Below, piece after piece: positions 5,561 to 25,053 of a stretch of 57,704 nucleotides of DNA. The DNA lies in contig JBDRJG010000022.1 in assembly GCA_043815085.1 (NCBI GenBank), forward strand, positions 1 to 57,704. Direction: 5' to 3'. Source of the stretch: Candidatus Iainarchaeum sp. (GTDB lineage Archaea > Nanobdellota > Nanobdellia > Pacearchaeales > GW2011-AR1). Each line of letters opens with the position of its first letter. Within the stretch, counting starts at the first letter, position 1. The position numbers and the translations under genes were made by a program. Below the pieces are notes generated by a model. That model was given only the letters and a program-made list of their open reading frames with translations, made no database searches and had not been told where the DNA came from.

Positions 5561-5583
5561 AGAATGTTCTAAATCCCACTACT

Positions 5584-5591
5584 TTTATAAA
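5584..5591 (+). promoter_or_regulatory. TATA box TTTATAAA
   Basis: Ends 21 nt upstream of ATG 5613, which supports 5613 rather than 5544 as the start. Confidence 0.45.
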
Positions 5592-5612
5592 TTCTTGTTG
5601 TTTGGTTTAGTC

Positions 5613-12351: not shown

Positions 12352-12390
12352 TGCGAAACATATTTAAACAATATTTGATAAATATATAGT

Positions 12391-12996
12391 ATGATAGAAG
12401 AATTGATTACATTGGCTTCTTATGGGTACTTTGGTGGAGGAGCAATTGGAGATTTGTTTGCACAATGGGAGGCTGCCGGAGTATTTACTTACATGCTTCC
12501 TTTTCTTTTAATATTTGCCTTGGTTTTTGGGCTTTTAATTAGACTCAATATTTTTGGAACCAAAGAAAATCCAAATAAAGGAATTAATGCAATTATTGCT
12601 CTTGCAGTTGCTTTAATGGCTTTGCAGTTTAATGTTGTCTCTATTTTCTTTGCAGAAATTTTCCCTAGAATGGGAATTGCCCTTTCTATCATCTTGATAA
12701 TATTAATTTTGGGGGGATTATTTATACCAACGAATAAATCAAATAATTGGTTTATGGTAACACTCATAGTAATTGTGTTTGGAATTGTGATTGTTGTTAT
12801 TTATGGTTCAATGAATGCAATGGGGTGGGGATTTTTTAGTGGAGGAGGATTTTCTTATTTCTGGAGGCAGTATGGAGCACTTATAATTTTCCTTGCGATA
12901 GTTGTTGCGGTTATAGCAACCACAACTGTGAAAAAGAATGAGAATCGGCCAGAAGTCGAGAATGTTTTATCTAGATTAATTAGGGGAAGTGATTAA
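12391..12996 (+). CDS. Polytopic membrane protein, unknown family (paralogue of 11842-12351)
   Basis: 201-aa ORF with several TM helices and the same N-terminal motif as the preceding gene. Confidence 0.5.
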   Translation: MIEELITLASYGYFGGGAIGDLFAQWEAAGVFTYMLPFLLIFALVFGLLIRLNIFGTKENPNKGINAIIALAVALMALQFNVVSIFFAEIFPRMGIALSIILIILILGGLFIPTNKSNNWFMVTLIVIVFGIVIVVIYGSMNAMGWGFFSGGGFSYFWRQYGALIIFLAIVVAVIATTTVKKNENRPEVENVLSRLIRGSD

Positions 12997-13008
12997 TTTT
13001 TTTAATTC

Positions 13009-13719
13009 TTAAGATTTTTTCTTTTTTCTATGGGTTGTTTTAGAATGCCTTGTATTTTTTGAATTTATCTCGTGTAGTTTTGGAACTATTTTTTCAAATG
13101 AATCTTGCATCATCTCCATCTCATCCTTTATTGATTCTAGATTTTTTCCATACGAACCGATTTTCTCAATAATAGCTATTTGCAATTTGTCTATAATATT
13201 TTCCATTCGTTTTAATCTTTCATGATTATTGCTTATTTTTGTCTCTGCAAGAGTTGCAAATTCATTTAATGCATCTATTTGTTTACGCTCTTTTTTTATT
13301 TTTTCAGAGAAAACTTGCTCTGCAATTTCAATAAAAGTGTCTGTTTCATAGCCCCCCCCTCCAGATTCTTCATATCCTTGCTGAGGAGAATATTCTTCAT
13401 TATATTGCTCTCCGTATTGAGGAACTTCTGTTTCTTCTATAGCCGGAGGGGCATACAGTTCTTCAGGGCCATTTTCAATTTCCATACTTTTTGGAACATG
13501 TAGAGTTGGAGGAGAGGTTTGGTTTCTTCCTTGAAGATTTTCTTTTATATTTGGTTTTTTTTCTTCCTCTTCGGAATAAATAGCATCTTTTATTTTCATC
13601 TGATTTATAGCATCCTCAATTGCTTTAGGAGTAATTCCTCTTTCTTGCAGTCTGCTGGATATTTCTTTGCTATCCATTCCCTGGTCCTGCAAGCGGCTTA
13701 TCTCCTCTAAAATTCCCAT
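13009..13719 (-). CDS. Coiled-coil protein with N-terminal helical hairpin, acidic/Gly linker and basic tail
   Basis: 236-aa ORF. N-terminus LQDQGMDSKEISSRLQERGITPKAIEDAINQ, long heptad-like C-terminal half, tail HRKKKKS. No confident family. Confidence 0.5.
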   Translation of the reverse strand: MGILEEISRLQDQGMDSKEISSRLQERGITPKAIEDAINQMKIKDAIYSEEEEKKPNIKENLQGRNQTSPPTLHVPKSMEIENGPEELYAPPAIEETEVPQYGEQYNEEYSPQQGYEESGGGGYETDTFIEIAEQVFSEKIKKERKQIDALNEFATLAETKISNNHERLKRMENIIDKLQIAIIEKIGSYGKNLESIKDEMEMMQDSFEKIVPKLHEINSKNTRHSKTTHRKKKKS

Positions 13720-13734
13720 TGATATTATAAGTTT

Positions 13735-14106
13735 TTATTTGTTTTTTAATTTTTCTGCCTTTTTTAATTCTTTTATTTGAAGCAATTCTTTTTTCGTCAC
13801 AAATTCCAATGGCTGAAACATTTTTGCTTGTTTTGAAAGAATCTCTAAATCTTCTTTTTTTGCAAATTTTGAAAATTCACTTGAAGCTGTTTCTAAAAAA
13901 GACTTTAATCTCTCTAAATCTTGCTTTATTTTCTCAATATCTTTTTTTATCTCTAAAAATGTTCTATGAAAATCTTCTTTAAATTCTATCAGGTTTTGTC
14001 CAATTAAAAGAATTCTATCTTTGAGTATTCTCTGCTTCTCCTCCAAATCACGAACTTTGGTGCTTGTTTCAGTAAAATATGAATTTTCATAATCTTGTCC
14101 TTCCAT
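13735..14106 (-). CDS. Small coiled-coil protein, unknown function
   Basis: Start set to the ATG at 14106 (MEGQDYEN...) because an A/T box at 14128-14136 lies 21 nt upstream. The ORF track extends to 14151. Confidence 0.45.
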   Translation of the reverse strand: MEGQDYENSYFTETSTKVRDLEEKQRILKDRILLIGQNLIEFKEDFHRTFLEIKKDIEKIKQDLERLKSFLETASSEFSKFAKKEDLEILSKQAKMFQPLEFVTKKELLQIKELKKAEKLKNK

Positions 14107-14188
14107 AGTATATAAATAGAAAAAGAGTTTAAATTTGTTTGGATTATACAAAATAATTTAAACCACAAATCCTTTTTTTTGAAATGAA

Positions 14189-16507
14189 ATGGAGGTGTTC
14201 TCTCTAAATAGATATAATATGAAATTTGAAAAAGAAGAAGAACTTTACTCTTACGAGGTTAGAAGAGAAGGCGGGGAGGATATCCTTTATATTAATTATT
14301 TGGGGGCCCCTTATGTTCCCAGTTTATCTGAATATCCGGAGGTGATGGAGAGAACAATAGATGCTTTAATTGAAAATCCGAATGTTTCAAGAGTAATTTT
14401 TGTTCAGCAAAAAAATTATAATTATGATTTTAATGAGACAAACTATCTTTTAGAAATTGCACAACTTTATGTCTCTCTTATTAAACAAGAGAGAGTTTTA
14501 TCTCAGGAGAAACTTATAAGTTCAAATCCAGAATTCTTCTCTAGAAGATATAATGAAATATTTTCTTTTTTATATCTCTTAAAAAAGGATCCTCTTGCAG
14601 CTTATGCTGAATTGAAAAAGATAATCATAGAGGAAAAGATTTTTTTAGATAAAGTTGATCCTGTTTTTGAATCAGATCAAAGGAATTATCTTTCTCTTTT
14701 GGAAAAAATTTATGGATTATTCTTTAAGACAAAATTTATGCAAGAAGCACTTTTCTATTTGGAGGACTATAAGAAAGGAGACAGAGAAATTTACTCTAAG
14801 ATTTTTAAGCCAGATGTTATAGCTAATTTTACTTTTACAAGGCTTGTCTCAGATTTACCAACAGATGCAGAAATTATAGATCAATATAAAATTTCTAATG
14901 GGGAATACGATGAATCTTTAGTTACAATTCTAAAAAGAAAAGATGAATTGAAGTTAATATATCATTTAGTTCCTCCAGAAAATATTCTAAACGAGGACCA
15001 TAGCATTTTATTAAATTTGGCGAGAGGAGTTTTAATTGAGCATCAACCAAAAGCAGAAGAATTTACAGATACTGAAAGAATAAGGCAGGTTTTTTTTAAT
15101 ATTTCTCGAGATTTGATAAGAGATTTAGCACAGACAAAAGGAATTAAATTAGATTATTCAGGATTAAATAAATTATCTGCTATTTTGGTTAGGCACACAA
15201 TTGGTTTTGGAATTGTAGAGATTTTACTTCAAGACAAAAATCTCCAGGACATTTTTTTAAATTCGCCTATTTCACAAACAAAGATATTTGTAATGCATCA
15301 AGATTATGATGAATGTTCTACAAATATTTTGCCAAGCCAAGAAGATGCAGATTCTTGGGCCGCAAAATTTAGAATGGTTTCTGGGAGACCTCTAGATGAA
15401 GCGAATCCAATTTTGGATACTCAACTTGAAATAGGAAACTTGAGATCGAGAATCGCGATTATTCAGCAACCCTTGTCTTCAGATGGATTAGCATATGCTA
15501 TAAGGAGACATAGAGAAAATCCCTGGACTTTGCCTCTTTTTGTTCAAAACAAAATGTTAAATCCTTTTACTGCAGGATTAATGAGTTTTCTAATAGATGG
15601 TGCAAGAACTCTTTTAGTTGCCGGAACCAGAAGTTCAGGTAAGACTTCTTTATTGGGAAGTTTAATGTTTGAGATTGTTCCTAAGCACAGAATTATTGTA
15701 ATAGAGGATTCTCTTGAATTGCCTGTTGAATCTCTAAGAAAATTGAATTATAATATACTTCGAATGAAAGTCCGTTCAGCATTGCTAAAGACAACCACAG
15801 AAGTTTCTGCTGAGGATGGAATAAGAACAAGTTTAAGGCTGGGAGATAGTTGTTTAATTATTGGGGAAGTTAGAAGTGTTGAAGCAAAAGCTCTTTATGA
15901 AGCAATGAGGATTGGCGCTTTAGCAAATGTTGTTGCAGGAACGATTCATGGAGCATCTCCCTATGGAGTTTTTGATAGGGTGGTTAATGATTTAGAAGTC
16001 CCAGCAACTAGTTTTAAAGCAACTGATTCAATTATCATTTGCAATCCAATAAAATCTCCAGATGGTTTACATTCCTGGAAAAGAGTGCTTCAGCTTTCAG
16101 AGGTGAGGAAACATTGGAAAAGAGATCCCCTGCTGGAAAAAGGATTTGTAGATTTACTAAAATATAATGTGGAAAAAGATGAACTTGAACCAACAGACGA
16201 TTTAATAAATGGGGATAGCGAGATAATAAAAGATGTTGCAGCGAATGTAAAAGGGTGGGCTGGAAATTGGGATGCAGTTTATGATAATATTCTTTTGAGG
16301 GCGAAATTAAAAAAAGAGATAGTCGAGATTGCTAAAAAAACAGAGGACTATGACCTTCTTGAATCTAAATTTAATACTCTCTCCAATTCTGCTTTTCATA
16401 GGATATCTGAAGAAGTAATTCAGGAAATAGGACTTCCAACAAGCGAACGGGTTTTTCCGCTTTGGCAGGATTGGTTGAATAAAGAAATTAAAAAAAGAAA
16501 AATATAG
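14189..16507 (+). CDS. Type II/IV secretion-superfamily ATPase (archaeal pilus/archaellum assembly ATPase, FlaI/PilB/VirB11-like)
   Basis: 772-aa ORF with Walker A GTRSSGKTS, a downstream IIVIEDSLEL (Walker B-like) and GEVRS, plus a long N-terminal extension. Confidence 0.85.
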   Translation: MEVFSLNRYNMKFEKEEELYSYEVRREGGEDILYINYLGAPYVPSLSEYPEVMERTIDALIENPNVSRVIFVQQKNYNYDFNETNYLLEIAQLYVSLIKQERVLSQEKLISSNPEFFSRRYNEIFSFLYLLKKDPLAAYAELKKIIIEEKIFLDKVDPVFESDQRNYLSLLEKIYGLFFKTKFMQEALFYLEDYKKGDREIYSKIFKPDVIANFTFTRLVSDLPTDAEIIDQYKISNGEYDESLVTILKRKDELKLIYHLVPPENILNEDHSILLNLARGVLIEHQPKAEEFTDTERIRQVFFNISRDLIRDLAQTKGIKLDYSGLNKLSAILVRHTIGFGIVEILLQDKNLQDIFLNSPISQTKIFVMHQDYDECSTNILPSQEDADSWAAKFRMVSGRPLDEANPILDTQLEIGNLRSRIAIIQQPLSSDGLAYAIRRHRENPWTLPLFVQNKMLNPFTAGLMSFLIDGARTLLVAGTRSSGKTSLLGSLMFEIVPKHRIIVIEDSLELPVESLRKLNYNILRMKVRSALLKTTTEVSAEDGIRTSLRLGDSCLIIGEVRSVEAKALYEAMRIGALANVVAGTIHGASPYGVFDRVVNDLEVPATSFKATDSIIICNPIKSPDGLHSWKRVLQLSEVRKHWKRDPLLEKGFVDLLKYNVEKDELEPTDDLINGDSEIIKDVAANVKGWAGNWDAVYDNILLRAKLKKEIVEIAKKTEDYDLLESKFNTLSNSAFHRISEEVIQEIGLPTSERVFPLWQDWLNKEIKKRKI

Positions 16508-16620
16508 TGTTTTTTATTTGTCTGTAAAATAAATTTGCTAAGCAAGAGGAAGATTTAAGATTTTTAGCAATTCTCCAAAGATTTATTAATTAATTTTAAT
16601 TGTTTTCTTTAGAGGTGAAT

Positions 16621-18801
16621 ATGCCAAACAATAGGAAACCGGATGTGAAAGATATTCTAAGGAAGTATGGGAGCAAACTCGAAGGGCAGATAAAAACAAC
16701 TGATCTTGGAGTTATGAAAGAAAGCAAATCTTATTTAAAATTTAAAGAGGAGAGAGCAAGAGAATTAAGTAGTTTTGAGAGATGGTGTAAAACTCTTGGC
16801 AATGCAATAAAAATAAAGGTATCAAAGAAGGATGAAGATAAAATAAGAAGAGCAATAGAAATAGCTCATCTTGATATTGAACCAGCAGAGGCATTGACTT
16901 TAAGTGTTATGACTTTTATTTCTGTTTTCTTCTTGGGAATTTTCTTGTCTGTTGCATTTGTTTTAATAAAAGAAGGAGGACTTGAGAATTTTCCTACTCT
17001 ATTTTTTCTTTTAACAACAATTGTAGCAACTTTTCTTTTTTATTATATTAATAGTTATCCTGAAAGATTAGCAAATAAATGGAGATTGAAAGCTTCTAGT
17101 CAGATGGTTCCTGCAATTTTATATGTTGTTGTTTACATGAGGCATACATCAAATTTAGAAAAAGCAATAGCATTTGCTTCAGAACATTTATCATACCCCC
17201 TTGCACTTGATTTCAAAAAAGTTTTTTACAATGTTGAAATTGGGAAATTCTCTACAATTAAAGAGAGTCTTGATAATTATCTTGAGGTATGGAAAGATTA
17301 TTCAATAGAATTTGTAGAAGCATTTCATCTCATTGAAAGCAGTTTGTTTGAACCAGACAAAGGAAGAAGAATTGCTACTCTTGAAAAATCTCTACAAGTT
17401 GTTCTTGACGGAGTTTATGATAAAATGCTTAAATTCACCCACGATGTTAAGTCCCCCCTCACAAACGTTTACATGCTCGCCATTATGCTTCCTATTCTTG
17501 GAATTGCATTGATTCCTCTCGCATCTGCTATGATGGATGGCATGATAAAGGGGATGCATCTTTTTATTTTTTATAATATGATTATTCCTTTTATTGCATT
17601 TTTTATGATGGATAAAATTTTGCTTTTAAGGCCTGGAGGATACGGTGAAACTTCCTATCTTGAAAAGAATCCACTCTATCCACAATATAAATCAAATGCA
17701 CCTTATCTCGCAGCATTTCTTATTTGTCTTCCTTTGTTTATATTGGGATTATTACCCCTAATTTTTCAATTCACACCAATTCCTGAATTGATTGGTTTGC
17801 AAAAAGATTATACTTTCGGGCAACTTGGATTAGGCTTTTTTGAACAAATTTCTGATGTTTATATTTTTGATTTTAGACAAACAGCAACAGGAATAGTTGG
17901 ACCTTTTGGCCCTCTCGCATTGTTCTTAAGTTTGCTTTTTCCTCTTGGTTTGGCTCTGTTTTTTTCAATACCATTTAAAGATAAAACAATTAATCTAATT
18001 GAAGAAAGAAATAAAACCAAACAATTGGAAACTGAATTTAATAATTCTTTATTTCAATTAGGAAATAGATTGGGAAATGGAATTCCTCCTGAACTTGTAT
18101 TTGGGAAAATTGCAGAGTCTTCAAAGGGATTAATTTCTGGAGATTTTTTCAGCAGAGTGAACTATAATATTCAGCAAATGGGAATGAGTGTGGAAAAAGC
18201 AATTTTTGATTCCAGAAGAGGCACACTTCTTTATTATCCTTCAGATTTGATTGCAACAAGCATGAGAGTTCTTATAGAGTCGTCAAAAAAAGGATTAAAA
18301 ATTGCTGCAGTAAGTTTGATGAGCATATCCGAGTATATAAAAAATATACAGAAGATAACTCTAAGACTAAAGGATATGCTTGCAGAAGTTGTTTCTGAAA
18401 TGAAAAGCAATATGACTTTCCTCGCACCATTACTTTCTGGAATTGTCATAGGGCTTGCATTGATGATTACCTCAATTTTATCTAAATTGGATTTGTCTAA
18501 GTTGACAGGAGCAGGGGTATCTAACTTTGGATTTTTGGAAAAGATGGGGGAAATATTCCCCTTGGAAAAAATGATTCCCCCTTATTACCTGCAACTTTCA
18601 ATTGGAATCTATTTAATACAAGTAATTTTTATTTTAACAGGGACTTTGGTTACAATAGATTCGGGAGAGGATAAGCTTGAAAAAACGAGCAAAATAGGAG
18701 AGAATCTCAAAAAAGGAATGGTGTTTTATTTTATTACAGCACTAATCGCATCCCTGGCATTGTTTATTCTAGTTTCATTTGTACTCGGTAACCTCGTTTA
18801 G
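16621..18801 (+). CDS. Polytopic platform protein (FlaJ/TadC/PilC-like)
   Basis: 727 aa from the ATG at 16621, preceded by GAGGTGA at 16612-16618. Many TM helices flank two soluble helical blocks, and it lies directly downstream of the ATPase. Confidence 0.7.
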   Translation: MPNNRKPDVKDILRKYGSKLEGQIKTTDLGVMKESKSYLKFKEERARELSSFERWCKTLGNAIKIKVSKKDEDKIRRAIEIAHLDIEPAEALTLSVMTFISVFFLGIFLSVAFVLIKEGGLENFPTLFFLLTTIVATFLFYYINSYPERLANKWRLKASSQMVPAILYVVVYMRHTSNLEKAIAFASEHLSYPLALDFKKVFYNVEIGKFSTIKESLDNYLEVWKDYSIEFVEAFHLIESSLFEPDKGRRIATLEKSLQVVLDGVYDKMLKFTHDVKSPLTNVYMLAIMLPILGIALIPLASAMMDGMIKGMHLFIFYNMIIPFIAFFMMDKILLLRPGGYGETSYLEKNPLYPQYKSNAPYLAAFLICLPLFILGLLPLIFQFTPIPELIGLQKDYTFGQLGLGFFEQISDVYIFDFRQTATGIVGPFGPLALFLSLLFPLGLALFFSIPFKDKTINLIEERNKTKQLETEFNNSLFQLGNRLGNGIPPELVFGKIAESSKGLISGDFFSRVNYNIQQMGMSVEKAIFDSRRGTLLYYPSDLIATSMRVLIESSKKGLKIAAVSLMSISEYIKNIQKITLRLKDMLAEVVSEMKSNMTFLAPLLSGIVIGLALMITSILSKLDLSKLTGAGVSNFGFLEKMGEIFPLEKMIPPYYLQLSIGIYLIQVIFILTGTLVTIDSGEDKLEKTSKIGENLKKGMVFYFITALIASLALFILVSFVLGNLV

Positions 18802-18835
18802 TAAATTTTATTAATGGTATTCTACTGGATAAATT

Positions 18836-19000
18836 ATGAAAAAGAGGCTTTTATTCAAAAAAGGAATTGTAATGGATTATCTTCCATGGATAATAATTGC
18901 AGTTTTGGTTCTGGTAATTGTTTTGATATCTATTTTTTTTATGAGTGAAAAAGGGAATTCTTTTATTGATCAAATTAAAAATTTATTTAGGAGAAGTTAA
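18836..19000 (+). CDS. 54-aa prepilin-like microprotein (not in ORF track)
   Basis: Hand translation: MKKRLLFKKGIVMDYLPWIIIAVLVLVIVLISIFFMSEKGNSFIDQIKNLFRRS. It has a basic N-terminus ending KKG, then a hydrophobic helix. Confidence 0.4.
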   Translation: MKKRLLFKKGIVMDYLPWIIIAVLVLVIVLISIFFMSEKGNSFIDQIKNLFRRS

Positions 19001-19165
19001 ATGGAAATTACTATTGGAAATGTAATTAAAATAATTTTAGGAATTCTGGTCATTGTTGCAGTTGCTTATGGGCTGTACCGCTTTTTTAGTGATTCTGTGA
19101 TAGATTTATTTAAAAATATTGGGGTAAATACTTCGGTTAAATGTTTTCTTGGATTATTAACATGA
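19001..19165 (+). CDS. 54-aa single-TM microprotein (not in ORF track)
   Basis: The ATG directly abuts the previous TAA. Sequence MEITIGNVIKIILGILVIVAVAYGLYRFFSDSVIDLFKNIGVNTSVKCFLGLLT. Its stop overlaps the next ATG (ATGA at 19162-19165). Confidence 0.35.
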   Translation: MEITIGNVIKIILGILVIVAVAYGLYRFFSDSVIDLFKNIGVNTSVKCFLGLLT

Positions 19166-19635
19166 ACAAAAAAGGTTTTCTTTTAGCTGAGGAAACATTA
19201 AAAATTCTAGTTGCTTTGGTTTGCCTCGTTTTTTTAATCTTTCTTGTAATTTCATTGTATAATTCTGCAACAAAGGATAAAAAGCTAGAATATGCAAAGG
19301 CAGATTTATCTCAGATATACGATATAATTTCTACCTTAAAGGAGGGTGAAACCAAATCTCAGATTTTACCAAATCCAGAAGGGTGGCATCTTTATAGTTT
19401 TGTGGAAAGTGAAAAACCAAATTCTTGTATAGGGGATAATTGTTTGTGTATTTGCGATAATGTTTTTATAAGATTAATTAGTTCTCAGGCAGAAAAATGC
19501 AATAAAAAAGGAACTTGCCTTATTGTTTCAGATTTAGCAAAAGGAAATTTAGATATAAAGATTAAAAATCCCACCTTTTTAAGAATTAGAAAGCAGAGTG
19601 GGAAGATTTTTATAGGGGAGACAAATGAACTTTGA
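19162..19635 (+). CDS. Prepilin-like protein (class III signal peptide), Cys-containing globular part
   Basis: MNKKG/FLLAEETLKILVALVCLVFLIFLV. Gly at -1 and Glu at +5 relative to the predicted cleavage site. Six Cys in the C-terminal domain. Confidence 0.55.
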   Translation: MNKKGFLLAEETLKILVALVCLVFLIFLVISLYNSATKDKKLEYAKADLSQIYDIISTLKEGETKSQILPNPEGWHLYSFVESEKPNSCIGDNCLCICDNVFIRLISSQAEKCNKKGTCLIVSDLAKGNLDIKIKNPTFLRIRKQSGKIFIGETNEL

Positions 19636-19726
19636 AATTATTTTTAAATATGCAATTTGGATAATTTTCTTGGCAATTATATTGTTCGGATTGTTTTTTC
19701 TTTTAAATAAAGCAGGAGTGTTATGA
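19625..19726 (+). CDS. 33-aa hydrophobic microprotein (not in ORF track)
   Basis: MNFEIIFKYAIWIIFLAIILFGLFFLLNKAGVL. It overlaps both neighbours, with its stop in ATGA with the next start at 19723. Confidence 0.25.
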   Translation: MNFEIIFKYAIWIIFLAIILFGLFFLLNKAGVL

Positions 19727-20700
19727 TGAAAAAATCTTTTAAAATAGAGAGAAAAGGAGAATTAACAACTTATCAAATAGTTTTGTTAATAATTCTGTTA
19801 GTAAGTTTTGTACTAATTTTAATTTTTCTTTTTAGACTTAATCTTGGAGGAGAAACTGAAAAGGAAATCTGCCATAACTCTGTTGTAATGAAAGGGAGTG
19901 CAGTCATCCCAACTGAATCAATCCCGTTAAAATGCTCAACAAAATATGTTTGCATCACTCTAGATGGGGCTTGTGAAGAATTGACAAAACCAGAAATTAA
20001 ATATGTAGATTCAAAAGAAGAGATTTATAGTGTTCTTTCTGAAGAGATGATGGATTGTTGGTGGATGTTTGGAGAAGGAAAAGTAGATTATATAAAAAAT
20101 GAAATTTTAAAGAAAAATCATTGCTCAATATGCTCTCAAATATATTTTGATAAGAGTTTATCAGAAATAAATGGAATCGACGAGGTAGTAAGCAAAGACG
20201 AATTATATTCTTATATGTCTGAGATAAATGTTCCAGACAAAGAAATTACTTATTTAGAATATCTTTTTAGAACAAATGATTTAGAGGGTTTAAAGAGAAA
20301 TATAGCTCAAGATAAAAATAATCCTGAAAGAATCGGGACTTTTGGAAATATACTTGTCGGAGAACATTATTTTATTGTAATGGGAATCACAAGCGAGATA
20401 AACACTTTTGGATGGGCGATTAGGGGCGCTGCAGTTGGAGGGATAGCAGTTGTTACTCTTGCAACATTTGGGGTTGGAACTGCCGGTTTTGCTGCAGTGT
20501 TAATAGGGGAAGCAGCAGGTGCTGCTGTAGGAGGAGTAATTGGTCCAAAAGTTGCAGAAAGAGTTAGACCAGAGATAGGAGCAATAATTCTTGAAGGGGA
20601 CGGAGTTGATAACATATTTATGGCCCCCACAATTCAAGAAGCAGAGTCAGAAAAATTCAAAGCATTAAACTGCGCAAATATTTTAACTAGTCTCAATTAA
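19723..20700 (+). CDS. Prepilin-like N-terminus, Cys-rich domain and Gly/Ala-rich C-terminal membrane segments
   Basis: MMKKSFKIERKG/ELTTYQIVLLIILLVSFVLILIFLF. C-terminal region is AIRGAAVGGIAVVTLATFGVGTAGFAAVLIGEAAGAAVGGVIG. Confidence 0.5.
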   Translation: MMKKSFKIERKGELTTYQIVLLIILLVSFVLILIFLFRLNLGGETEKEICHNSVVMKGSAVIPTESIPLKCSTKYVCITLDGACEELTKPEIKYVDSKEEIYSVLSEEMMDCWWMFGEGKVDYIKNEILKKNHCSICSQIYFDKSLSEINGIDEVVSKDELYSYMSEINVPDKEITYLEYLFRTNDLEGLKRNIAQDKNNPERIGTFGNILVGEHYFIVMGITSEINTFGWAIRGAAVGGIAVVTLATFGVGTAGFAAVLIGEAAGAAVGGVIGPKVAERVRPEIGAIILEGDGVDNIFMAPTIQEAESEKFKALNCANILTSLN

Positions 20701-20701
20701 A

Positions 20702-21115
20702 ATGAAAAAAAAAGGAACAATTCTTATAGAAAATGTTGTATTCATTATTTTAAATTTAATTTTTTTAAGTGTATTGGTTTTATTTTTGCTTAGGCAGGGG
20801 AGCGGAGCAATTGTATTGGAGCAGATTTATGCTAAGGAAATTGCAATGATTGGCGATTCTGCAAAACCCGTTATGATGATAAAAATAGATATGAGTAAGG
20901 GAAAAAAGCTTGTGGATGGAAATGGAGTTGATTTTAGCAAGATAGTAAAAATTAATGAGAATATCGTAGAAGTTAAACTGACTTCTAAAGGGGGATATAG
21001 ATATGCTTTTTTTAATAATATAGATTTGACTGCATATGCTGAAAGAGATGATAAAAATGAGTATACCGGAATGTATGTATTGACAATAAATGAAAAGGAA
21101 AAAGAAAATGAATAA
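20702..21115 (+). CDS. Prepilin-like protein (class III signal peptide)
   Basis: MKKKG/TILIENVVFIILNLIFLSVLVLFLL. Gly at -1 and Glu at +5. Confidence 0.55.
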   Translation: MKKKGTILIENVVFIILNLIFLSVLVLFLLRQGSGAIVLEQIYAKEIAMIGDSAKPVMMIKIDMSKGKKLVDGNGVDFSKIVKINENIVEVKLTSKGGYRYAFFNNIDLTAYAERDDKNEYTGMYVLTINEKEKENE

Positions 21116-21644
21116 AAAAGGCACAGATAAGATGTTGTCTTTATATTGGTTTGCAATATTAACAATTGTAGCAGGAGGAATCTTTGTCATGGTTTATATC
21201 TTTTATGGGGCTCCTTATGATGTCAGAAAAATAGAATCCCAATTGTTTGCTAATAAAATTGTAGATTGTATTTCTCAAGGAGGGAGAATAAATGCTGTTT
21301 TTTTGAGTAATCAAGTTTTTAATTCTGAAATTCAAGAGAATTTGTTAGAAGAATGCACACTCAATTTTAATGTGGAAGAAGAATATGGAGTAAGTACCCC
21401 CCAATATTTTCTTGAAATTGAGTTTTATACTTTGGATGACTTGTCTGAACCTGCATTTAAATTAAATGAAGGAAATCTTAATTGGGAGAAAAGTTGTTTT
21501 ATTAAGAACAAAAAAGCAGAAGATTATAACCGGTTTCCAAAGTGTGCAGAAAGAAGATTTTATGCATTAGATGAAGAAAATAATCAATATTTAATTAAAG
21601 TATTATCCGCTGTAGGAAAATTTGAAAAAAATGTTAAACAATAA
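21108..21644 (+). CDS. Prepilin-like protein
   Basis: MNKKG/TDKMLSLYWFAILTIVAGGIFVMVYIF. The start overlaps the previous gene's end. An alternative ATG exists at 21090. Confidence 0.5.
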   Translation: MNKKGTDKMLSLYWFAILTIVAGGIFVMVYIFYGAPYDVRKIESQLFANKIVDCISQGGRINAVFLSNQVFNSEIQENLLEECTLNFNVEEEYGVSTPQYFLEIEFYTLDDLSEPAFKLNEGNLNWEKSCFIKNKKAEDYNRFPKCAERRFYALDEENNQYLIKVLSAVGKFEKNVKQ

Positions 21645-21966
21645 ACTGAACAAAAAAGCGCAGGTGGGAGAAACAATAACCTGGGTGGTTGCAACAATTA
21701 TAATTATTTTTATCTTGTTAACTTCTGTATATGTCTCAATTTTATTGGGGAAAATAAAATCTATAAAATCTAGCCCAAAATTAGATTTAGGAGAATCTTC
21801 TATTGATTGGATAGATGTTAAAACAGAAATAGCATATAAAATTAATAATAAGAATAAAGATAAAATAGAAAATTGGATTTCTCAGGAAAATGAAGAGGAA
21901 AGTGATTCTTCTCTTATATTTGGAGGAGGAGAGTTTAGTGGAGGGGGGGCCGGAGGAGAATATTAA
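21631..21966 (+). CDS. Prepilin-like protein with Gly-rich C-terminus
   Basis: MLNNKLNKKA/QVGETITWVVATIIIIFILL. The C-terminal tail is FGGGEFSGGGAGGEY. Confidence 0.55.
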   Translation: MLNNKLNKKAQVGETITWVVATIIIIFILLTSVYVSILLGKIKSIKSSPKLDLGESSIDWIDVKTEIAYKINNKNKDKIENWISQENEEESDSSLIFGGGEFSGGGAGGEY

Positions 21967-21987
21967 TTTCTGTGAAAGGATATTAAA

Positions 21988-22281
21988 ATGATAAATAAGC
22001 GAGTTAACAAAAAAGCAGACATACCTGTAACGATATTAGTAATAGGGGTTTTTGCAGTTTGCGTTCTTGCTTTAATTATTTTCTTAAATTCCTCCCACTA
22101 TGCAGGAAAATATTTTGCTGGAATTAATTTAATAGAAGAGGCAAAGGCAAGAATAGAAGCAGGAAGTTTAAATCATTTATATCTAGATAAAAGAAAAACT
22201 AAATTTGATATTGAAATTGGAGAGGGGGGAATTTCCTTTTTTAAAGAAAAAATAATCTTTTCAGTAGAGTATAACCCTTAA
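21988..22281 (+). CDS. Prepilin-like protein
   Basis: MINKRVNKKA/DIPVTILVIGVFAVCVLALIIFL. Confidence 0.55.
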   Translation: MINKRVNKKADIPVTILVIGVFAVCVLALIIFLNSSHYAGKYFAGINLIEEAKARIEAGSLNHLYLDKRKTKFDIEIGEGGISFFKEKIIFSVEYNP

Positions 22282-22310
22282 TTTAATCTTTTCTTGAAAA
22301 ACCAATAAAA

Positions 22311-22318
22311 TTTATAAA
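22311..22318 (+). promoter_or_regulatory. Internal TATA box TTTATAAA
   Basis: Ends 21 nt upstream of ATG 22340. Confidence 0.4.
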
Positions 22319-22339
22319 CCCTTTAATCCTTTTGAATAG

Positions 22340-22921
22340 ATGAAATCGAATACTAAGAGGTTATTTTTATCCTTATTTTTCAGCTTGTTAATTGTTAATT
22401 TATTTGGATTTTTTGGAATTGTTTCTGCAGCTGCAGGAGATACAATCACTTATAATGTTAATCAAGAAATAAATGTAGATGCGGGCCTTGGAAAAGTTCT
22501 GGGGTTTTTGAATATTACTGGAACCTGGAGAGAAGTTGTCTTAGGATTAATTGTCTTGCTTATAATTTTTGCAGCACTATATGATATTCTTATGCTTATT
22601 AACATTTTTCAAATTAAGTGGGTAAAAATAATTATTGCAGCTGGGCTTGCTATTGTAGCAGCTTTGACAAATGTTGTTTCTAAATTCACATTATTCTTAC
22701 TGAAAGTTGCAGCAGGATTTGGGGCAATAGGAATATTCATAGAGATTATAATCACTATAATACTCTTTGTCGGATTAGCTATGGGAAGCAATTGGATTGC
22801 CAAATGGGCTGCAAAGAGAAAAGGGCAGGCGGCAGAACTTGCAGCAATTGAGTCTTCTGGAGATACTAAAGCAGCCATAAGAGGAATGAGAAATATTCAA
22901 GAAGAGTTTGAAAGAAAATAG
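22340..22921 (+). CDS. Secreted/polytopic membrane protein of the pilus cluster
   Basis: 193-aa ORF with signal peptide ...FGIVSAAAG followed by about four TM helices. Unknown family. Confidence 0.5.
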   Translation: MKSNTKRLFLSLFFSLLIVNLFGFFGIVSAAAGDTITYNVNQEINVDAGLGKVLGFLNITGTWREVVLGLIVLLIIFAALYDILMLINIFQIKWVKIIIAAGLAIVAALTNVVSKFTLFLLKVAAGFGAIGIFIEIIITIILFVGLAMGSNWIAKWAAKRKGQAAELAAIESSGDTKAAIRGMRNIQEEFERK

Positions 22922-22966
22922 ATTAGAAATATTAAGGCTTAAAAAGGGCTTTTAATTATTTATTTT

Positions 22967-23665
22967 ATGAAATTCGGGAGATTATTTTTTATTTTTATTC
23001 TTGGGATTCTTCTAATGCAAATTCCTTTTGTTATTGCAGAGAAAACTGATTTTGGTGGGGGGGGATTTGGAGGAGCAGGAGCAGGGGGGAGTTTCACAAC
23101 AGACATTGCAGAAGGAAATGCAGATTATTTAACAGATTTTGCAGATTCAAGCAAATGGGGGAATTTATCCCAAAATTGGAAGCAAGAACTTTTAAGCACC
23201 GGATTTTTTTCAGGAATGAATGTTTTTCTCAGTAAAATTAATTTTGTATTTGTAATCCTTTTTGGAGAGTCTTATGAATTCTCTCTTCTTTTTGTATTTA
23301 TTATAATATTATGGTTTTGGTTCTTCTTTCAGTTTAAAAGAATACTGAAAGCAATTTCTCTTTTTTCATCCTGGGTTTCTTTAATAATTTCTTTTGGTCT
23401 TGCAGTTGCATTGGCTCAGCTGGGACTTTATAAGAGTCTTTCGGCTTTTTTTGTAAAATTGATATTTCTGCCTAAAAGTCCTTGGTTAGGAATTGTATTC
23501 TTTTTCTTGATAATTGCTGTTTTAATTATCCTTTCTAAGTTCGGGAAAATGATTGAAATAAAAACAGCCAAAAATAAAGAACTTTTAGAAAAAGAAAAAG
23601 AAAAGATAAATCGTAATGTTTTGGACACATATGTTGGCGGATTAAAAAAAGGTTTTGATAAATAA
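22967..23665 (+). CDS. Secreted/polytopic membrane protein with Gly-rich N-terminal segment
   Basis: 232-aa ORF with a signal peptide, then DFGGGGFGGAGAGGSF, then several TM helices. Confidence 0.5.
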   Translation: MKFGRLFFIFILGILLMQIPFVIAEKTDFGGGGFGGAGAGGSFTTDIAEGNADYLTDFADSSKWGNLSQNWKQELLSTGFFSGMNVFLSKINFVFVILFGESYEFSLLFVFIIILWFWFFFQFKRILKAISLFSSWVSLIISFGLAVALAQLGLYKSLSAFFVKLIFLPKSPWLGIVFFFLIIAVLIILSKFGKMIEIKTAKNKELLEKEKEKINRNVLDTYVGGLKKGFDK

Positions 23666-23726
23666 AGAGGAAATATTTATAAACAGCATTTTACTTTATA
23701 ATTTATAAATTAGCAAAAAGGGGAAA

Positions 23727-24050
23727 ATGAAAAATAAAAAAGCCCAAGGTATGAGTACATCAACTATTATCCTTATGATTTTAGGATTAGTTATACTAGT
23801 TATTTTAATTCTTGGATTCACTTTGGGATGGAATAAATTTCTTCCTTGGTTAAAAACAAATAATTTAGAAACAATAAAAACTACATGTGCTGTTGCATGC
23901 TCTACAAACAGCATCTATGATTTTTGCACTTTGAGCAGAGAAGTTAATGATGGGGAAAATGATAAATTTTCATCAAATTGTGAAGAGCTATCTACAGCAG
24001 ATAAGTATAAACTCTATGGAATCACTCCTTGTCCGAATATCTGCCCTTAA
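23727..24050 (+). CDS. Prepilin-like protein, Cys-containing
   Basis: MKNKKA/QGMSTSTIILMILGLVILVILILGF. Six Cys in the globular part. Confidence 0.55.
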   Translation: MKNKKAQGMSTSTIILMILGLVILVILILGFTLGWNKFLPWLKTNNLETIKTTCAVACSTNSIYDFCTLSREVNDGENDKFSSNCEELSTADKYKLYGITPCPNICP

Positions 24051-24193
24051 TGGTTCTAAATTCTAAAATGTCTTCAAATCACAGTTCTGGTTTTGAAAAA
24101 AGAAATAAAGGGAAAGATAAACGCAGAGAGAAGAAAAAGCATCCTTATCAGAAAGGCGGGAAATATAGGTCTATTAAAATTAAGAGTGAATAA
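24050..24193 (+). CDS. Possible 47-aa highly basic peptide (not in ORF track)
   Basis: The ATG overlaps the preceding TAA (TAATG). Sequence MVLNSKMSSNHSSGFEKRNKGKDKRREKKKHPYQKGGKYRSIKIKSE. This could be a chance ORF. Confidence 0.2.
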   Translation: MVLNSKMSSNHSSGFEKRNKGKDKRREKKKHPYQKGGKYRSIKIKSE

Positions 24194-24201
24194 TTTATAA
24201 A
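24194..24201 (+). promoter_or_regulatory. TATA box TTTATAAA
   Basis: Ends 21 nt upstream of ATG 24223. Confidence 0.45.
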
Positions 24202-24222
24202 TAATAATTTCTAATTTCTTTT

Positions 24223-25053
24223 ATGTTTGAGGTGATTTTTTTAATTGTTCTTGGGTTAATCTGGATTTTATTTGCAGTAGTGCAGGATTTAAAAAAGAGA
24301 GAGATTGCGAATTGGCTTAATTTTTCACTTATAATTTTTGCATTGGGCTTTAGGCTTTTCTATTCTTTATTTTTCGATTCAAATTTAATATTCTTCTACC
24401 AAGGATTAATTGGATTTGTACTTTTCTTTTTTTTGGGAAATATGCTTTATTATGGAAGAGTTTTTGCAGGAGGAGATGCAAAACTAATGATTGCATTAGG
24501 AGCAATCTTGCCTCTCTCTGAAAGTTTATATGCAAATTTAAATTTGTTCTTTTTATTTTTTATACTTTTTTTGATTGTCGGGGCAGTTTATGGATTAATA
24601 TTCAGTTTAGTTTTAGCAATAAGGAATAATAAAAATTTCAAGAGAGAGTTTACAAGAAAATTTGTGAAAAATAGGATGCTCTTTCATGTAAGTTTAATTG
24701 TTTCACTTATTTTTGTTTTTATCTCTTTTTTTAATAGAATTTTTATTTATCCTGCTATTCTTGTTTTTCTCTCTCCGTATATTTATTTCTCAGCCAAGGC
24801 AATAGATGAAGTCTGCATGATTAAAAAAGTCCCTGTATCGAAATTAACAGAGGGGGATTGGCTTTACAAGGATGTCCGGATTGGTAGAAAAATAATAAAA
24901 GCAAGCTGGGATGGCTTGAGCAGGGAGGAGATAAATCTGCTAAAAAATAGATATAAGAAAGTCTTAATTAGACGGGGAATACCTTTTAGCCCTGTTTTTT
25001 TAATATCTTACTTAATCTTTTTTCTTCTTATCAATAAAATCTCTTTTATTTAG
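24223..25053 (+). CDS. A24-family prepilin/preflagellin peptidase (PibD/FlaK/EppA-like) with archaeal C-terminal domain
   Basis: 276-aa polytopic ORF. First catalytic Asp in VQDLKKREIANW (codon 24286-24288), second in FAGGDAKLM (codon 24475-24477). Confidence 0.75.
   Translation: MFEVIFLIVLGLIWILFAVVQDLKKREIANWLNFSLIIFALGFRLFYSLFFDSNLIFFYQGLIGFVLFFFLGNMLYYGRVFAGGDAKLMIALGAILPLSESLYANLNLFFLFFILFLIVGAVYGLIFSLVLAIRNNKNFKREFTRKFVKNRMLFHVSLIVSLIFVFISFFNRIFIYPAILVFLSPYIYFSAKAIDEVCMIKKVPVSKLTEGDWLYKDVRIGRKIIKASWDGLSREEINLLKNRYKKVLIRRGIPFSPVFLISYLIFFLLINKISFI

What the first reader, a model, noticed from the sequence alone, without database searches (positions are those of the whole stretch)
14189..25053. 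~11 kb type IV pilus-like machine with an unusually large, diverse set of prepilin-like genes
Seen in sequence: a secretion-superfamily ATPase (Walker A GTRSSGKTS) is followed by a 727-aa FlaJ/TadC-like platform, then 14 tightly packed small genes, then an A24 prepilin peptidase with both catalytic Asp motifs. Many of the small genes have abutting or 4-14 nt overlapping junctions. Eight of them start with a short basic N-terminus ending K-K-G, K-K-A or R-K-G, followed at once by a ~20-residue hydrophobic helix, which is a class III signal peptide. Established knowledge: the ATPase + platform + peptidase + class III substrates define archaeal type IV filament systems. No archaellum-specific accessory gene (KaiC-like FlaH, FlaF/G, FlaC/D/E) is recognisable, so an adhesion or uptake filament is more likely than motility. 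The globular parts of the pilin-like proteins, the two polytopic membrane proteins (22340-23665) and the microproteins match no family I can name. Inference: in a DPANN-like episymbiont this is the prime candidate for a host-attachment or exchange apparatus of undescribed composition.
Basis: partly seen in the sequence, partly recalled or inferred. Interest (0 to 1): 0.8.

Follow-up and report, generated by a model that had tools for sequence, protein, structure and literature searches.

The report
DPANN archaeal type IV pilus operon
This is a real, strongly conserved type IV pilus-like machine of tiny Pacearchaeota/Woesearchaeota archaea, whose eight pilin-like subunits match no catalogued family and which, in related genomes, carries bacterial-cell-wall-cutting enzyme domains, so it probably contacts or breaches a bacterial host.

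Summary
On the + strand, 14189-25053 encodes a PilB/VirB11-type ATPase, a 726-aa polytopic platform, 12 small genes (not 14) and an A24 prepilin peptidase. Both catalytic Asp residues of the peptidase (D22, D85) align to those of FlaK. Eight small genes start with [KR][KR][G/A] followed by a hydrophobic helix, and their orthologues keep this motif.

The block is collinear in about a dozen Pace-/Woesearchaeota MAGs. The platform hits no profile directly, but 28 of 53 divergent relatives hit Pfam T2SSF. No archaellum-specific gene is present.

- The two polytopic proteins (22340-23665) are a mobile two-gene cassette, not core parts.
- The conserved unit extends upstream to two coiled-coil proteins and two paralogous membrane proteins (11842-14151).
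- Conserved type IV pilus-like loci with coiled-coil proteins in these lineages were already outlined by Hamm et al. 2024.

New here:
- None of the pilin families matches any Pfam or NCBIfam model.
- The largest one (g7) has a confidently modelled fold with no PDB match.
- In five relatives, pilin-like proteins in this array carry SLT lytic-transglycosylase domains, which points to bacterial murein as the target.

Verdict: a lineage-specific variant of a known kind of machine; function inferred, not shown.

The parts
11842..12351 (+). up4: 169-aa polytopic membrane protein, paralogue of up3; conserved upstream neighbour
   Evidence: Syntenic in 24 of 34 near loci and 18 of 80 distant loci. hhalign of up3 against up4 gives probability 99.1%, E 1.3e-18. 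No Pfam family.
12391..12996 (+). up3: 201-aa membrane protein with 5 hydrophobic segments; conserved upstream neighbour
   Evidence: Function unknown.
13009..13719 (-). up2: 236-aa soluble protein, coiled-coil-like C-terminal half; candidate 'CCP'
   Evidence: Syntenic in 25 near loci and 11 distant loci. Only weak Pfam hits, to coiled-coil families. Equivalence to the coiled-coil proteins of Hamm 2024 is inferred.
13735..14151 (-). up1: coiled-coil-like protein of about 123-138 aa, divergently transcribed from the ATPase (likely ATG near 14106)
   Evidence: Adjacent to the ATPase on the opposite strand in 26 near loci and 19 distant loci, at 25-82% identity. Sequence read.
14189..16507 (+). 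g1: secretion-superfamily (PilB/VirB11/FlaI/CpaF) ATPase, 772 aa, with N- and C-terminal extensions around the core (about 228-613)
   Evidence: Pfam T2SSE 2.8e-14. NCBIfam FlaI 1.1e-35 and TadA 7.5e-35, both far below the family cut-offs. PDB: afGspE 2oap 3.3e-24, CpaF 3.3e-23, FlaI 1.5e-13. 60-82% identical in 34 MAGs.
16621..18801 (+). g2: 726-aa polytopic platform, a very divergent two-domain T2SSF/TadC/FlaJ-type protein
   Evidence: No direct Pfam, NCBIfam or PDB hit. 28 of 53 divergent family members hit Pfam T2SSF, best 3.2e-10, and 4 hit Spore_III_AB. The top PDB hit of the family profile is the GspF cytoplasmic domain, at the LFQLGNRL motif, E 0.41. Foldseek gives a local match to SpoIIIAB. 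N-half against C-half hhalign E 0.0015. JGI names some homologues TadB.
18836..19000 (+). g3: 54-aa prepilin-like protein, KKG|IVMDYLPW..., about 44 aa when mature, no globular domain; candidate major subunit (Flp/EpdE-like in form)
   Evidence: Orthologues in 15 loci with a conserved [KR]G|[IV][IV]S[ED]YLPW and an IDxIKNLFR tail. A class III microprotein of 42-49 aa is also the first gene after the platform in the distant loci L025, L100 and L111.
19001..19165 (+). g4: 54-aa leaderless pilin-like microprotein (MEITIGNVIKIILG...)
   Evidence: Conserved in 8 loci and called independently in L115. Its L025 homologue has a NSKA|MEMAIS leader. In other relatives this slot holds larger class III proteins.
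19141..19635 (+). g5: prepilin-like, KKG|FLLAEETLKI (E at +5/+6), Cys-rich globular part; likely start at 19162
   Evidence: Orthologues in 15 loci.
19625..19726 (+). g6: 33-aa single-helix microprotein
   Evidence: tblastn hits in 9 loci. A 34-aa gene is called at the same place in L115 and L116.
19723..20700 (+). g7: 325-aa prepilin-like protein, RKG|ELTTYQIV; N-terminal helix plus a novel Cys-rich alpha/beta domain with a Gly/Ala-rich hydrophobic loop; candidate tip protein or adhesin
   Evidence: 675 homologues, all unnamed, none with a Pfam domain. Nine invariant Cys. AF2 pLDDT 78, pTM 0.77. No PDB fold match, best E 0.39.
20702..21115 (+). g8: prepilin-like, KKG|TILIEN (E at +5)
   Evidence: In L020 its orthologue carries an SLT domain.
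21090..21644 (+). g9: prepilin-like, KKG|TDKMLSLYWF
21622..21966 (+). g10: prepilin-like, KKA|QVGETITW (E at +5); Gly-rich C-terminal tail unique to this window
21988..22281 (+). g11: prepilin-like, KKA|DIPVTILV
   Evidence: In L010 its orthologue has an inserted SLT domain.
22340..23665 (+). g12 and g13: two polytopic membrane proteins (193 and 232 aa); a mobile two-gene cassette inserted in the operon, not core
   Evidence: No homologue in 114 related loci. g12 has 9 homologues in the 5.8-billion-protein collection. The pair is at the same site only in the closest relatives (L115, L116) and elsewhere in the genome in L117 and L118. Similarity of g12 to up3 is inconclusive (hhalign probability 56%).
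23727..24050 (+). g14: prepilin-like, KKA|QGMSTSTIIL (Q at +1), Cys-rich small head; alternative candidate major subunit
   Evidence: An AGGGG lies 5 nt upstream of the start.
24223..25053 (+). g15: A24 prepilin/preflagellin peptidase (PibD/FlaK type), catalytic D22 and D85
   Evidence: Pfam Peptidase_A24 8.7e-13. NCBIfam FlaK 3.1e-13, below the cut-off. Aligned to FlaK 3s0x with both Asp motifs kept.

Best explanation
This is a lineage-specific type IV filament (TFF) machine of Pacearchaeota/Woesearchaeota.

Shown:
- The genes for a PilB/CpaF/FlaI-family ATPase, a very divergent fused T2SSF-type platform and an A24 aspartyl peptidase are present.
- Eight proteins have conserved class III-like N-termini, tightly packed on one strand in operon fashion.
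- The arrangement is conserved in order across many MAGs.

Inferred mechanism:
1. The peptidase (g15) cuts the eight precursors after [KR][KR][G/A].
2. The hexameric ATPase (g1), docked on the platform (g2), uses ATP to lift the mature subunits out of the membrane by their N-terminal helices and stack them into a filament.
3. The 44-residue, head-less g3 is the most likely bulk subunit, giving a thin Flp/Epd-like fibre. g14 is the alternative.
4. g5, g7-g11 and the other of g3/g14 are low-copy 'minor' pilins that prime assembly and form the tip. The 30-kDa Cys-rich g7 is the best adhesin candidate.
5. The coiled-coil proteins up1 and up2 and the paralogous membrane proteins up3 and up4 are conserved partners of the motor, possibly as scaffold or regulators.

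Inferred role: contact with, and possibly local breaching of, another cell's envelope. In five relatives, pilin-like proteins of this same array carry murein lytic-transglycosylase domains, an activity with no substrate in an archaeon's own wall. The probable target is therefore a bacterial host or prey.
For: Core parts. Platform homology by transitivity.

Class III motifs: eight of the 11 hits among 248 ORFs are the contiguous locus genes. The motifs are conserved in orthologues.

Synteny: the block g1-g11, g14, g15 is collinear in about 12 loci at 30-70% protein identity. The array persists in the most distant MAG, L025 (ATPase 60%), and in the metagenome loci L100 and L111 (platform about 38-41% identical to the window's), each starting with a class III microprotein of 42-49 aa.

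Not an archaellum: no accessory or archaellin family was found. The ATPase is closer to afGspE and CpaF than to FlaI among solved structures.

Upstream partners: up1-up4 are syntenic even where the ATPase is only 45-55% identical.

SLT domains on pilin-like proteins within the array:
- L010: g11 scaffold, 1.7e-13.
- L020: g8 scaffold, 2e-15.
- L023: second slot after the platform, 9.2e-10.
- L058: first gene after the platform, 2.7e-6.
- L098: first gene after the platform, 6.5e-13.
All five are above the Pfam cut-off.

Literature: type IV pilus plus coiled-coil loci are conserved in these DPANN lineages, and some of their proteins were detected by proteomics in Ca. Nanohaloarchaeum (PMC11291902). 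Pace-/Woesearchaeota encode extracellular murein transglycosylases that were taken to indicate bacterial hosts (PMC8204110; PMC9723730).
Against: - No filament, cleavage or expression data exist for this system.
- FlaFind was not run. Three of the eight N-termini deviate from its +1/+2 residue sets.
- None of 44 pilin orthologues hits any pilin, archaellin or Flp Pfam model, so 'pilin' rests on N-terminal form and context.
- g7 has a second, Gly/Ala-rich, weakly hydrophobic stretch (about 232-278). If it spans the membrane, g7 could not be extracted into a fibre.
- The window's own array has no SLT domain. The murein link is therefore borrowed from relatives, and in bacteria such enzymes serve the machine's own wall passage.
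- In most distant relatives the ATPase-platform pair is not followed by pilin genes.
- The platform model is poor (pLDDT 60).
- Which subunit is the major one is unresolved.
Confidence: 0.6

Rival explanations
1. The system is a short pseudopilus or 'functionalised' display system, like a T2SS, the Com system or the bindosome, rather than a long adhesive pilus. The eight class III proteins would form a short envelope-spanning stalk. This stalk would present enzymes or binding domains at the surface, or act as a piston for uptake or export.
For: - Many different pilin-like proteins sit in one fixed-order operon with a single ATPase. This resembles GspG-K and ComGC-GG (my knowledge).
- The ATPase also matches the bindosome ATPase BasE over nearly the full profile, 3.2e-17.
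- Relatives hang enzyme domains on these scaffolds: SLT, TPM and a weak M15-like match.
- The 2026 preprint proposes that archaeal TFF machines are functionalised with class III binding proteins.
Against: - A head-less 44-aa subunit conserved at the first position is typical of fibre-forming Flp/Epd pilins, as described.
- No substrate-binding-protein domain is present in the window's array.
- The tools available cannot tell a long filament from a short one.
Confidence: 0.22
2. The system is a DNA-uptake (competence-type) pilus that scavenges nucleic acids for an organism lacking nucleotide synthesis.
For: - The operon layout ATPase-platform-pilins mirrors comGA-GG (my knowledge).
- Pacearchaeota are proposed to live on scavenged nucleotides (PMC8204110 abstract).
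- The literature on ultra-small cells links pili to eDNA uptake (PMC9938205).
Against: - No ComEC, ComEA, DprA or other DNA-binding domain was found in the locus or in the window ORFs that were scanned.
- There is no retraction ATPase.
- SLT fusions point to cell walls rather than to DNA.
Confidence: 0.1
3. The system is a divergent archaellum (motility).
For: The best NCBIfam hit of the ATPase is FlaI (1.1e-35) and that of the peptidase is FlaK. The coiled-coil up1 and up2 could be likened to ArlX.
Against: - Both hits are far below the family cut-offs (123 against 550 bits; 50 against 330).
- TadA scores the same as FlaI, and solved afGspE and CpaF score better than FlaI.
- There is no ArlH, ArlF, ArlG or ArlCDE, and no archaellin domain in any of 44 orthologues.
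Confidence: 0.03

Closest known systems
Conserved type IV pilus-like / coiled-coil-protein loci of 'cluster 2' DPANN (Hamm et al. 2024, Nat Commun, PMC11291902)
   Same: Same lineages (Pace-, Woese-, Nanoarchaeota). A CpaF-like ATPase and a TadC-like platform lie next to coiled-coil proteins. Here up1 and up2 sit divergently beside the ATPase in 26 near loci and 19 distant loci.
   Different: That paper names only CpaF and TadC, plus FlaF and PilA in one of the two loci. It gives no account of an eight-member class III array, the in-operon peptidase, the microproteins or SLT fusions. Direct homology of up1 and up2 to its coiled-coil proteins was not tested here.
Euryarchaeal 'clade 2 / system 2' pili (Haloferax PilB/PilC loci; Makarova 2016 PMC4858521; Sivabalasarma & Albers 2026 preprint)
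   Same: A single platform gene and an ATPase with extra N- and C-terminal regions. Several pilins, both with and without class III motifs, plus membrane proteins in the locus. A stand-alone MinD-like ATPase lies elsewhere (window 42819-43613). Descriptions.
   Different: The pilin families here match no Pfam or NCBIfam model. arCOG membership and the position of the ATPase in the reference tree were not testable. The platform is much more divergent, with no direct T2SSF hit.
Methanococcus Epd pilus / bacterial Tad-Flp pilus (system 1)
   Same: A very short major-pilin candidate without a globular head. Its G|xxx[ED]Y is one residue off the Flp G|XXXXEY motif (motif from my knowledge). The peptidase is encoded in the operon. 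The ATPase scores as well against CpaF as against any solved structure.
   Different: One fused platform gene instead of two (TadB/TadC, EpdJ/K). There is no Flp_Fap hit, and no secretin, TadZ or other bacterial parts.
Bacterial comG / T2SS pseudopilus operons
   Same: The order ATPase, then platform, then one major and several minor pilins. E at +5 in g5, g8 and g10.
   Different: Archaeal-type signal ([KR][KR][G/A], no N-methyl-Phe signature detected), an archaeal FlaK/PibD-type peptidase, and no outer-membrane or DNA-channel parts.

Membership tests
Type IV filament (TFF) superfamily | PilB/VirB11-family hexameric secretion ATPase | tested here: met
   Pfam T2SSE 2.8e-14, above the cut-off. 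PDB afGspE and CpaF at 3e-24 and 3e-23. Walker A, Walker B, Arg-finger region and His box are visible in the translation.
Type IV filament (TFF) superfamily | Polytopic T2SSF (PilC/TadB-C/FlaJ) platform protein | tested here: met
   Met only by transitivity. The window protein has no direct hit. Of 53 relatives at 24-43% identity, 28 hit T2SSF, best 3.2e-10. GspF is the top PDB hit of the family profile, E 0.41. Foldseek gives a local SpoIIIAB match.
Type IV filament (TFF) superfamily | A24 prepilin peptidase with two catalytic Asp | tested here: met
   Peptidase_A24 8.7e-13. D22 and D85 align to the two FlaK Asp motifs.
Type IV filament (TFF) superfamily | Substrates with class III signal peptides (short basic leader, G/A at -1, then a hydrophobic helix of about 20 residues) | tested here: met
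   Eight genes carry it. The motif is conserved in orthologues and enriched in the locus. The test was a home-made pattern, not FlaFind. Cleavage itself is not testable here.
Type IV filament (TFF) superfamily | Assembly of the subunits into a helical filament | not testable with these tools
   Needs microscopy or multimer modelling.
Archaellum (arl/fla) | ArlH (KaiC-like), ArlF and ArlG stator, ArlCDE or ArlX | tested here: not met
   None was found in the locus or the flanks by Pfam or NCBIfam. The only KaiC-like hit in the window is RadA. The coiled-coil up1 and up2 have no ArlX match.
Archaellum (arl/fla) | Archaellin-domain filament proteins | tested here: not met
   No archaellin family among 44 orthologues of the seven pilin families sampled.
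Epd / system 1 and bacterial Tad | Two separate platform genes (TadB and TadC type) | tested here: not met
   There is a single 726-aa gene. The weak internal N-half/C-half similarity (E 0.0015) is compatible with a fusion or a two-domain form.
Epd / system 1 and bacterial Tad | Short Flp/EpdE-type major pilin | tested here: inconclusive
   g3 has the form: 44 aa when mature, with G|xxx[ED]Y. It gives no Flp_Fap or other family hit.
Clade 2 / system 2 euryarchaeal pili | ATPase placed in clade 2 of the Makarova tree; pilins of arCOG02416 and arCOG02911 | not testable with these tools
   No arCOG profiles or reference tree were available. Only the descriptive features match: a single platform gene and an extended ATPase.
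DPANN cluster-2 type IV pilus / coiled-coil-protein loci (Hamm 2024) | ATPase and platform adjacent to coiled-coil proteins, in Pace-/Woese-/Nanoarchaeota | tested here: inconclusive
   Arrangement and taxa fit. The coiled-coil nature of up1 and up2 rests on weak Pfam hits. Homology to NAR1_03220 and NAR1_01690 was not tested.

The most novel reading that the evidence does not exclude
The operon encodes a host-breaching pilus of archaea that live on bacteria. It would be a thin Flp-like fibre whose multi-pilin tip complex binds the bacterial wall. In relatives the tip would enzymatically cut murein through pilin-borne lytic transglycosylases. In this genome it would use the novel-fold, Cys-rich g7, with its glycine-zipper-like loop, to engage or insert into the host envelope. 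This would be the first defined molecular apparatus for cross-domain (archaeon-on-bacterium) episymbiosis, built from pilin families unknown to current databases.
Probability: 0.25. Interest if true: 0.85.

Novelty: new variant of a known kind. Interest (0 to 1): 0.6.

Why it matters
Pacearchaeota and Woesearchaeota are among the most abundant uncultured archaea. Their hosts and their means of attachment are unknown. Standard annotation misses this machine: the platform and all the pilins have no profile hit, and one groundwater preprint even states that type IV pilus parts are 'missing in DPANN genomes'.

The family is nevertheless large and under strong constraint:
- The platform family has 1149 representatives at 50% clustering.
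- The ATPase is 60-82% identical across the 34 related species genomes recovered.
- In one relative the ATPase hosts an intein.

A defined parts list, a candidate major subunit and the recurrent SLT-pilin fusions give concrete, testable handles: antibodies, proteomic peptides, cryo-ET targets and enzyme assays. These bear on whether these archaea attach to or prey on bacteria.

Tried and rejected
1. Direct profile identification of the platform by Pfam, NCBIfam and PDB sequence, also with a 35-sequence profile, found nothing.
2. An AF2 model of the platform reached only pLDDT 60. Foldseek gave one local SpoIIIAB match and otherwise noise.
3. An internal-repeat test with the shallow alignment failed. 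With the diverse alignment it was only weakly positive.
4. Foldseek of the good g7 model against the PDB gave no match. The viral library was not tried because it seemed irrelevant.
5. A Pfam scan of 44 pilin orthologues for Flp, archaellin or class III families found none.
It worked with a 7-sequence subset.
7. The idea that g12 and g13 are core membrane parts was rejected. The idea that g12 is a paralogue of up3 is inconclusive (hhalign probability 56%).
8. The archaellum reading was rejected (see rivals).
9. A search for ComEC or other DNA-uptake genes among the scanned window ORFs found none.
10. No tRNA genes or signs of a mobile element were seen around the locus. GC is flat at about 0.31.

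Full report
**What is there.** All genes named here lie on the + strand. The region 14189-25053 holds the following:
- a 772-aa ATPase (g1, 14189-16507);
- a 726-aa polytopic protein (g2, ATG at 16621 behind a GAGGTG, ending at 18801);
- twelve small genes (g3-g14, 18836-24050);
- a 276-aa membrane peptidase (g15, 24223-25053).

Gene junctions from g3 to g11 are abutting or overlapping: 0, -4, -11, -4, +1, then -8 to -26 depending on the start codon. An independent gene call on a close relative also finds 12. The window is archaeal: its neighbours include RadA, aEF-1beta, eIF2alpha, RPA-like OB-fold, XPF, SRP54/FtsY and L10 genes. GC is about 0.31 throughout.

**Core components.**
- g1 hits Pfam T2SSE (2.8e-14, residues 414-611). 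NCBIfam gives FlaI 1.1e-35 and TadA 7.5e-35, a tie, and both are far below the family cut-offs.
- Among solved structures g1 is closest to Archaeoglobus GspE (2oap, 3.3e-24) and to the Tad ATPase CpaF (3.3e-23). Both score ahead of FlaI (1.5e-13).
- The conserved core is roughly residues 228-613, so g1 has sizeable N- and C-terminal extensions.
- g15 hits Peptidase_A24 (8.7e-13). It aligns to M. maripaludis FlaK (3s0x) with both catalytic motifs kept: vvqD22lkkREI against vqDfrsREI, and aGGD85aK against gGGDgK.

**The platform needed work.**
- g2 has no hit in Pfam, NCBIfam or the PDB, even as a 35-sequence profile.
- An AF2 model was poor (pLDDT 60). Foldseek returned only a local match to SpoIIIAB (TM 0.6 over 117 columns). 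From my own knowledge, SpoIIIAB is a GspF/PilC-like helical bundle.
- A profile search of 1.84 billion cluster representatives found 1149 family members.
- Of 53 diverse members (24-43% identical to g2), 28 hit Pfam T2SSF on their own, best 3.2e-10, and 4 hit Spore_III_AB.
- The top PDB match of the family profile is the GspF cytoplasmic domain, at the conserved LFQLGNRLxxGxPxE motif, but only at E 0.41.
- The N- and C-halves align weakly and collinearly (E 0.0015).
- I accept g2 as a very divergent two-domain T2SSF platform, established by transitive homology.

**The pilin-like genes.** Eight genes start with a short basic leader ending [KR][KR][G/A], followed at once by a helix of about 20 hydrophobic residues:

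| Gene | Predicted cleavage site |
|---|---|
| g3 | KKG\|IVMDYLPW |
| g5 | KKG\|FLLAEE |
| g7 | RKG\|ELTTYQ |
| g8 | KKG\|TILIEN |
| g9 | KKG\|TDKMLS |
| g10 | KKA\|QVGETI |
| g11 | KKA\|DIPVTI |
| g14 | KKA\|QGMSTS |

- A home-made FlaFind-like scan flagged 11 of 248 window ORFs. Eight of these are the contiguous genes above, and the other three are weak E-G/E-A matches.
- The motif and the first mature residues are conserved in orthologues of all eight families.
- g4 (54 aa) and g6 (33 aa) are conserved single-helix microproteins without leaders. The g4 homologue in L025 does have a leader (NSKA|MEMAIS).
- None of 44 orthologues from seven of these pilin families hits any pilin, archaellin, Flp or class III Pfam model. 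NCBIfam is equally blank.
- g7, the largest, has 675 unnamed homologues and nine invariant cysteines. Its AF2 model is good (pLDDT 78, pTM 0.77): an N-terminal helix, then an alpha/beta domain, with a low-confidence Gly/Ala-rich loop at about 232-278. It has no fold match in the PDB (best E 0.39).

**Conservation.**
- The ATPase recovers 34 loci from species-representative genomes. All are Pacearchaeota, Woesearchaeota or 'Nanoarchaeota' MAGs, at 60-82% identity.
- The block g1-g11, g14, g15 is collinear in about a dozen of them. Identities are 62-71% for g2 and 30-70% for the pilins.
- The most distant MAG (L025, ATPase 60%) still has nine to ten tandem class III genes, with some reordering.
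- Among 80 metagenome loci holding more distant platforms, 59 keep the ATPase next to the platform. L100 and L111 (platform about 38-41% identical to the window's g2) have eight or nine class III genes right after the platform, again led by a microprotein of 42-44 aa. Most of the others have no array there. The pilins can therefore be encoded elsewhere, as is known for Haloferax.

**Boundaries and non-core parts.**
- Upstream lie two soluble coiled-coil-like proteins on the opposite strand (up1 13735-14151, up2 13009-13719) and two paralogous 5-TM proteins (up3 12391-12996, up4 11842-12351; hhalign 99.1%).
- They travel with the ATPase in 24-26 near loci and in 11-19 distant ones. They belong to the conserved unit.
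- By contrast, g12 and g13 (22340-23665) have no homologue in any of the 114 related loci. g12 has only 9 homologues in 5.8 billion proteins.
- The g12-g13 pair sits at this site only in the nearest relatives (L115, L116). In another Pacearchaeote it lies between FEN1 and TYW2 genes (L117, L118). It is a small mobile cassette.

**What it is not.** No ArlH, ArlF/G, ArlCDE/X or archaellin is present. No ComEC-type or DNA-binding gene turned up among the window ORFs that were scanned.

**A functional lead from relatives.** In five related loci, pilin-like proteins inside this array carry a Pfam SLT lytic-transglycosylase domain, always above the gathering score:

| Locus | Scaffold or position | E-value |
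|---|---|---|
| L010 | g11 scaffold, same N- and C-termini as g11 | 1.7e-13 |
| L020 | g8 scaffold | 2e-15 |
| L023 | second slot after the platform | 9.2e-10 |
| L058 | first gene after the platform | 2.7e-6 |
| L098 | first gene after the platform | 6.5e-13 |

- Other relatives hang a TPM domain (L013) or a weak M15-peptidase-like segment (L111) on such scaffolds.
- Archaea of this group have no murein of their own (general knowledge). Large extracellular murein transglycosylases in Pace-/Woesearchaeota have already been read as a sign of bacterial hosts (PMC8204110; PMC9723730).
- The fusions place that activity on the pilus machinery. The window's own array has no SLT domain.

**Mechanism (inferred).**
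1. g15 removes the leaders.
2. g1, docked on g2, extrudes the mature subunits into a filament.
3. g3 is the best candidate for the bulk subunit. It is head-less, 44 aa when mature, the best conserved of the small genes, and first after the platform even in distant loci. In form it is Flp/EpdE-like: G|xxx[ED]Y against the Flp G|XXXXEY, the latter from my knowledge. g14 is the alternative.
4. The remaining six or seven would be minor pilins that prime and cap the fibre, with g7 as the candidate adhesin.
5. The likely role is contact with another cell, probably a bacterium.
6. A short pseudopilus or display-type machine (bindosome- or T2SS-like) cannot be excluded and is the main rival. DNA uptake and motility are less likely.

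**Relation to the literature.**
- Makarova et al. 2016 (PMC4858521) and Sivabalasarma & Albers 2026 (bioRxiv 10.64898/2026.04.22.720090) classify archaeal TFF systems. The description of 'system 2' fits best: a single platform gene, an ATPase with extra termini, pilins with and without class III motifs, and membrane proteins in the locus. The short pilin recalls system 1 (Epd). Neither paper details Pace-/Woesearchaeota.
- Hamm et al. 2024 (PMC11291902) reported two conserved type IV pilus-like loci (CpaF, TadC, coiled-coil proteins) across Nanohalo-, Woese-, Pace-, Nano- and Aenigmarchaeota. The present locus very probably belongs to these.
- He et al. (bioRxiv 10.1101/2020.05.14.094862) stated that type IV pilus components are missing in DPANN genomes. 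This shows how easily the system escapes annotation.

**Verdict.** The finding is real and the reading largely right. The machine is a lineage-specific variant of a known kind. It has been outlined in the literature, but its subunit set is undescribed and unannotatable with current profiles. The new comparative clue is the pilin-borne murein hydrolases.

Scores:
- Interest: 0.6.
- Confidence that this is a TFF machine: about 0.9.
- Confidence in the full mechanistic account, host contact included: 0.6.

Noticed in passing
L010:18817-19620; L020:17449-18408; L023:7230-8081; L058:3251-4846; L098:4361-5011: In five related loci, pilin-like proteins inside the array carry SLT lytic-transglycosylase domains, on at least three different scaffolds (g11 type, g8 type, and the first or second slot after the platform). 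The window itself has none.
   Followed up: yes
window 22340-23665; L115:10001-11327; L117:8205-9529: g12 and g13 form a rare two-gene membrane-protein cassette (g12 has 9 homologues in 5.8 billion proteins). It lies inside the pilin operon only in the nearest relatives and elsewhere in the genome of another Pacearchaeote.
   Followed up: yes
L104:6081-9896: In this relative the ATPase orthologue is 1271 aa because it hosts a LAGLIDADG intein (Intein_splicing 7.9e-17, LAGLIDADG_3 3.3e-24). That is typical of essential, highly conserved proteins.
   Followed up: partly
L008, L013, L020, L023 between ATPase and platform (e.g. L013:6829-9757, L023:3705-4709, L020:12401-12991): Unrelated genes (MFS transporter, DUF1846, LPG-synthase-like, methyltransferase) are inserted between the ATPase and platform genes in several relatives. 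The pair is therefore not always co-transcribed as neighbours.
   Followed up: partly
window 5544-9947 and 30960-37220 (also 29362-30792, 37252-38472): Very large ORFs (1467 and 2086 aa) and their neighbours have no Pfam match. They are possible giant surface proteins of the kind reported in Pace-/Woesearchaeota, but no SLT domain was detected in them.
   Followed up: no
window 42819-43613: A stand-alone MinD/ParA-family ATPase (AAA_31 6.8e-24). Makarova et al. proposed such a protein as a partner of euryarchaeal clade 1 and clade 2 pili.
   Followed up: no
window 21900-21966 (g10 tail) and 23040-23100 (g13): The C-terminal tail of g10 (IFGGGEFSGGGAGGEY) is absent from its orthologues. It resembles the Gly-rich stretch near the N-terminus of g13 (FGGGGFGGAGAGGSF). 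This may be a trace of the cassette insertion or of a shared motif.
   Followed up: no
L013:12216-12950; L111:15325-17049: Other pilin-slot proteins in relatives carry a TPM domain (1.3e-25) or a weak M15 D-Ala-D-Ala-peptidase-like segment (6.4e-5, below the cut-off).
   Followed up: partly
window 24029-24193: A 54-aa, very basic ORF lies in the 172-nt gap between g14 and the peptidase. It has no counterpart in the gene calls of L115 and is probably not a gene.
   Followed up: partly
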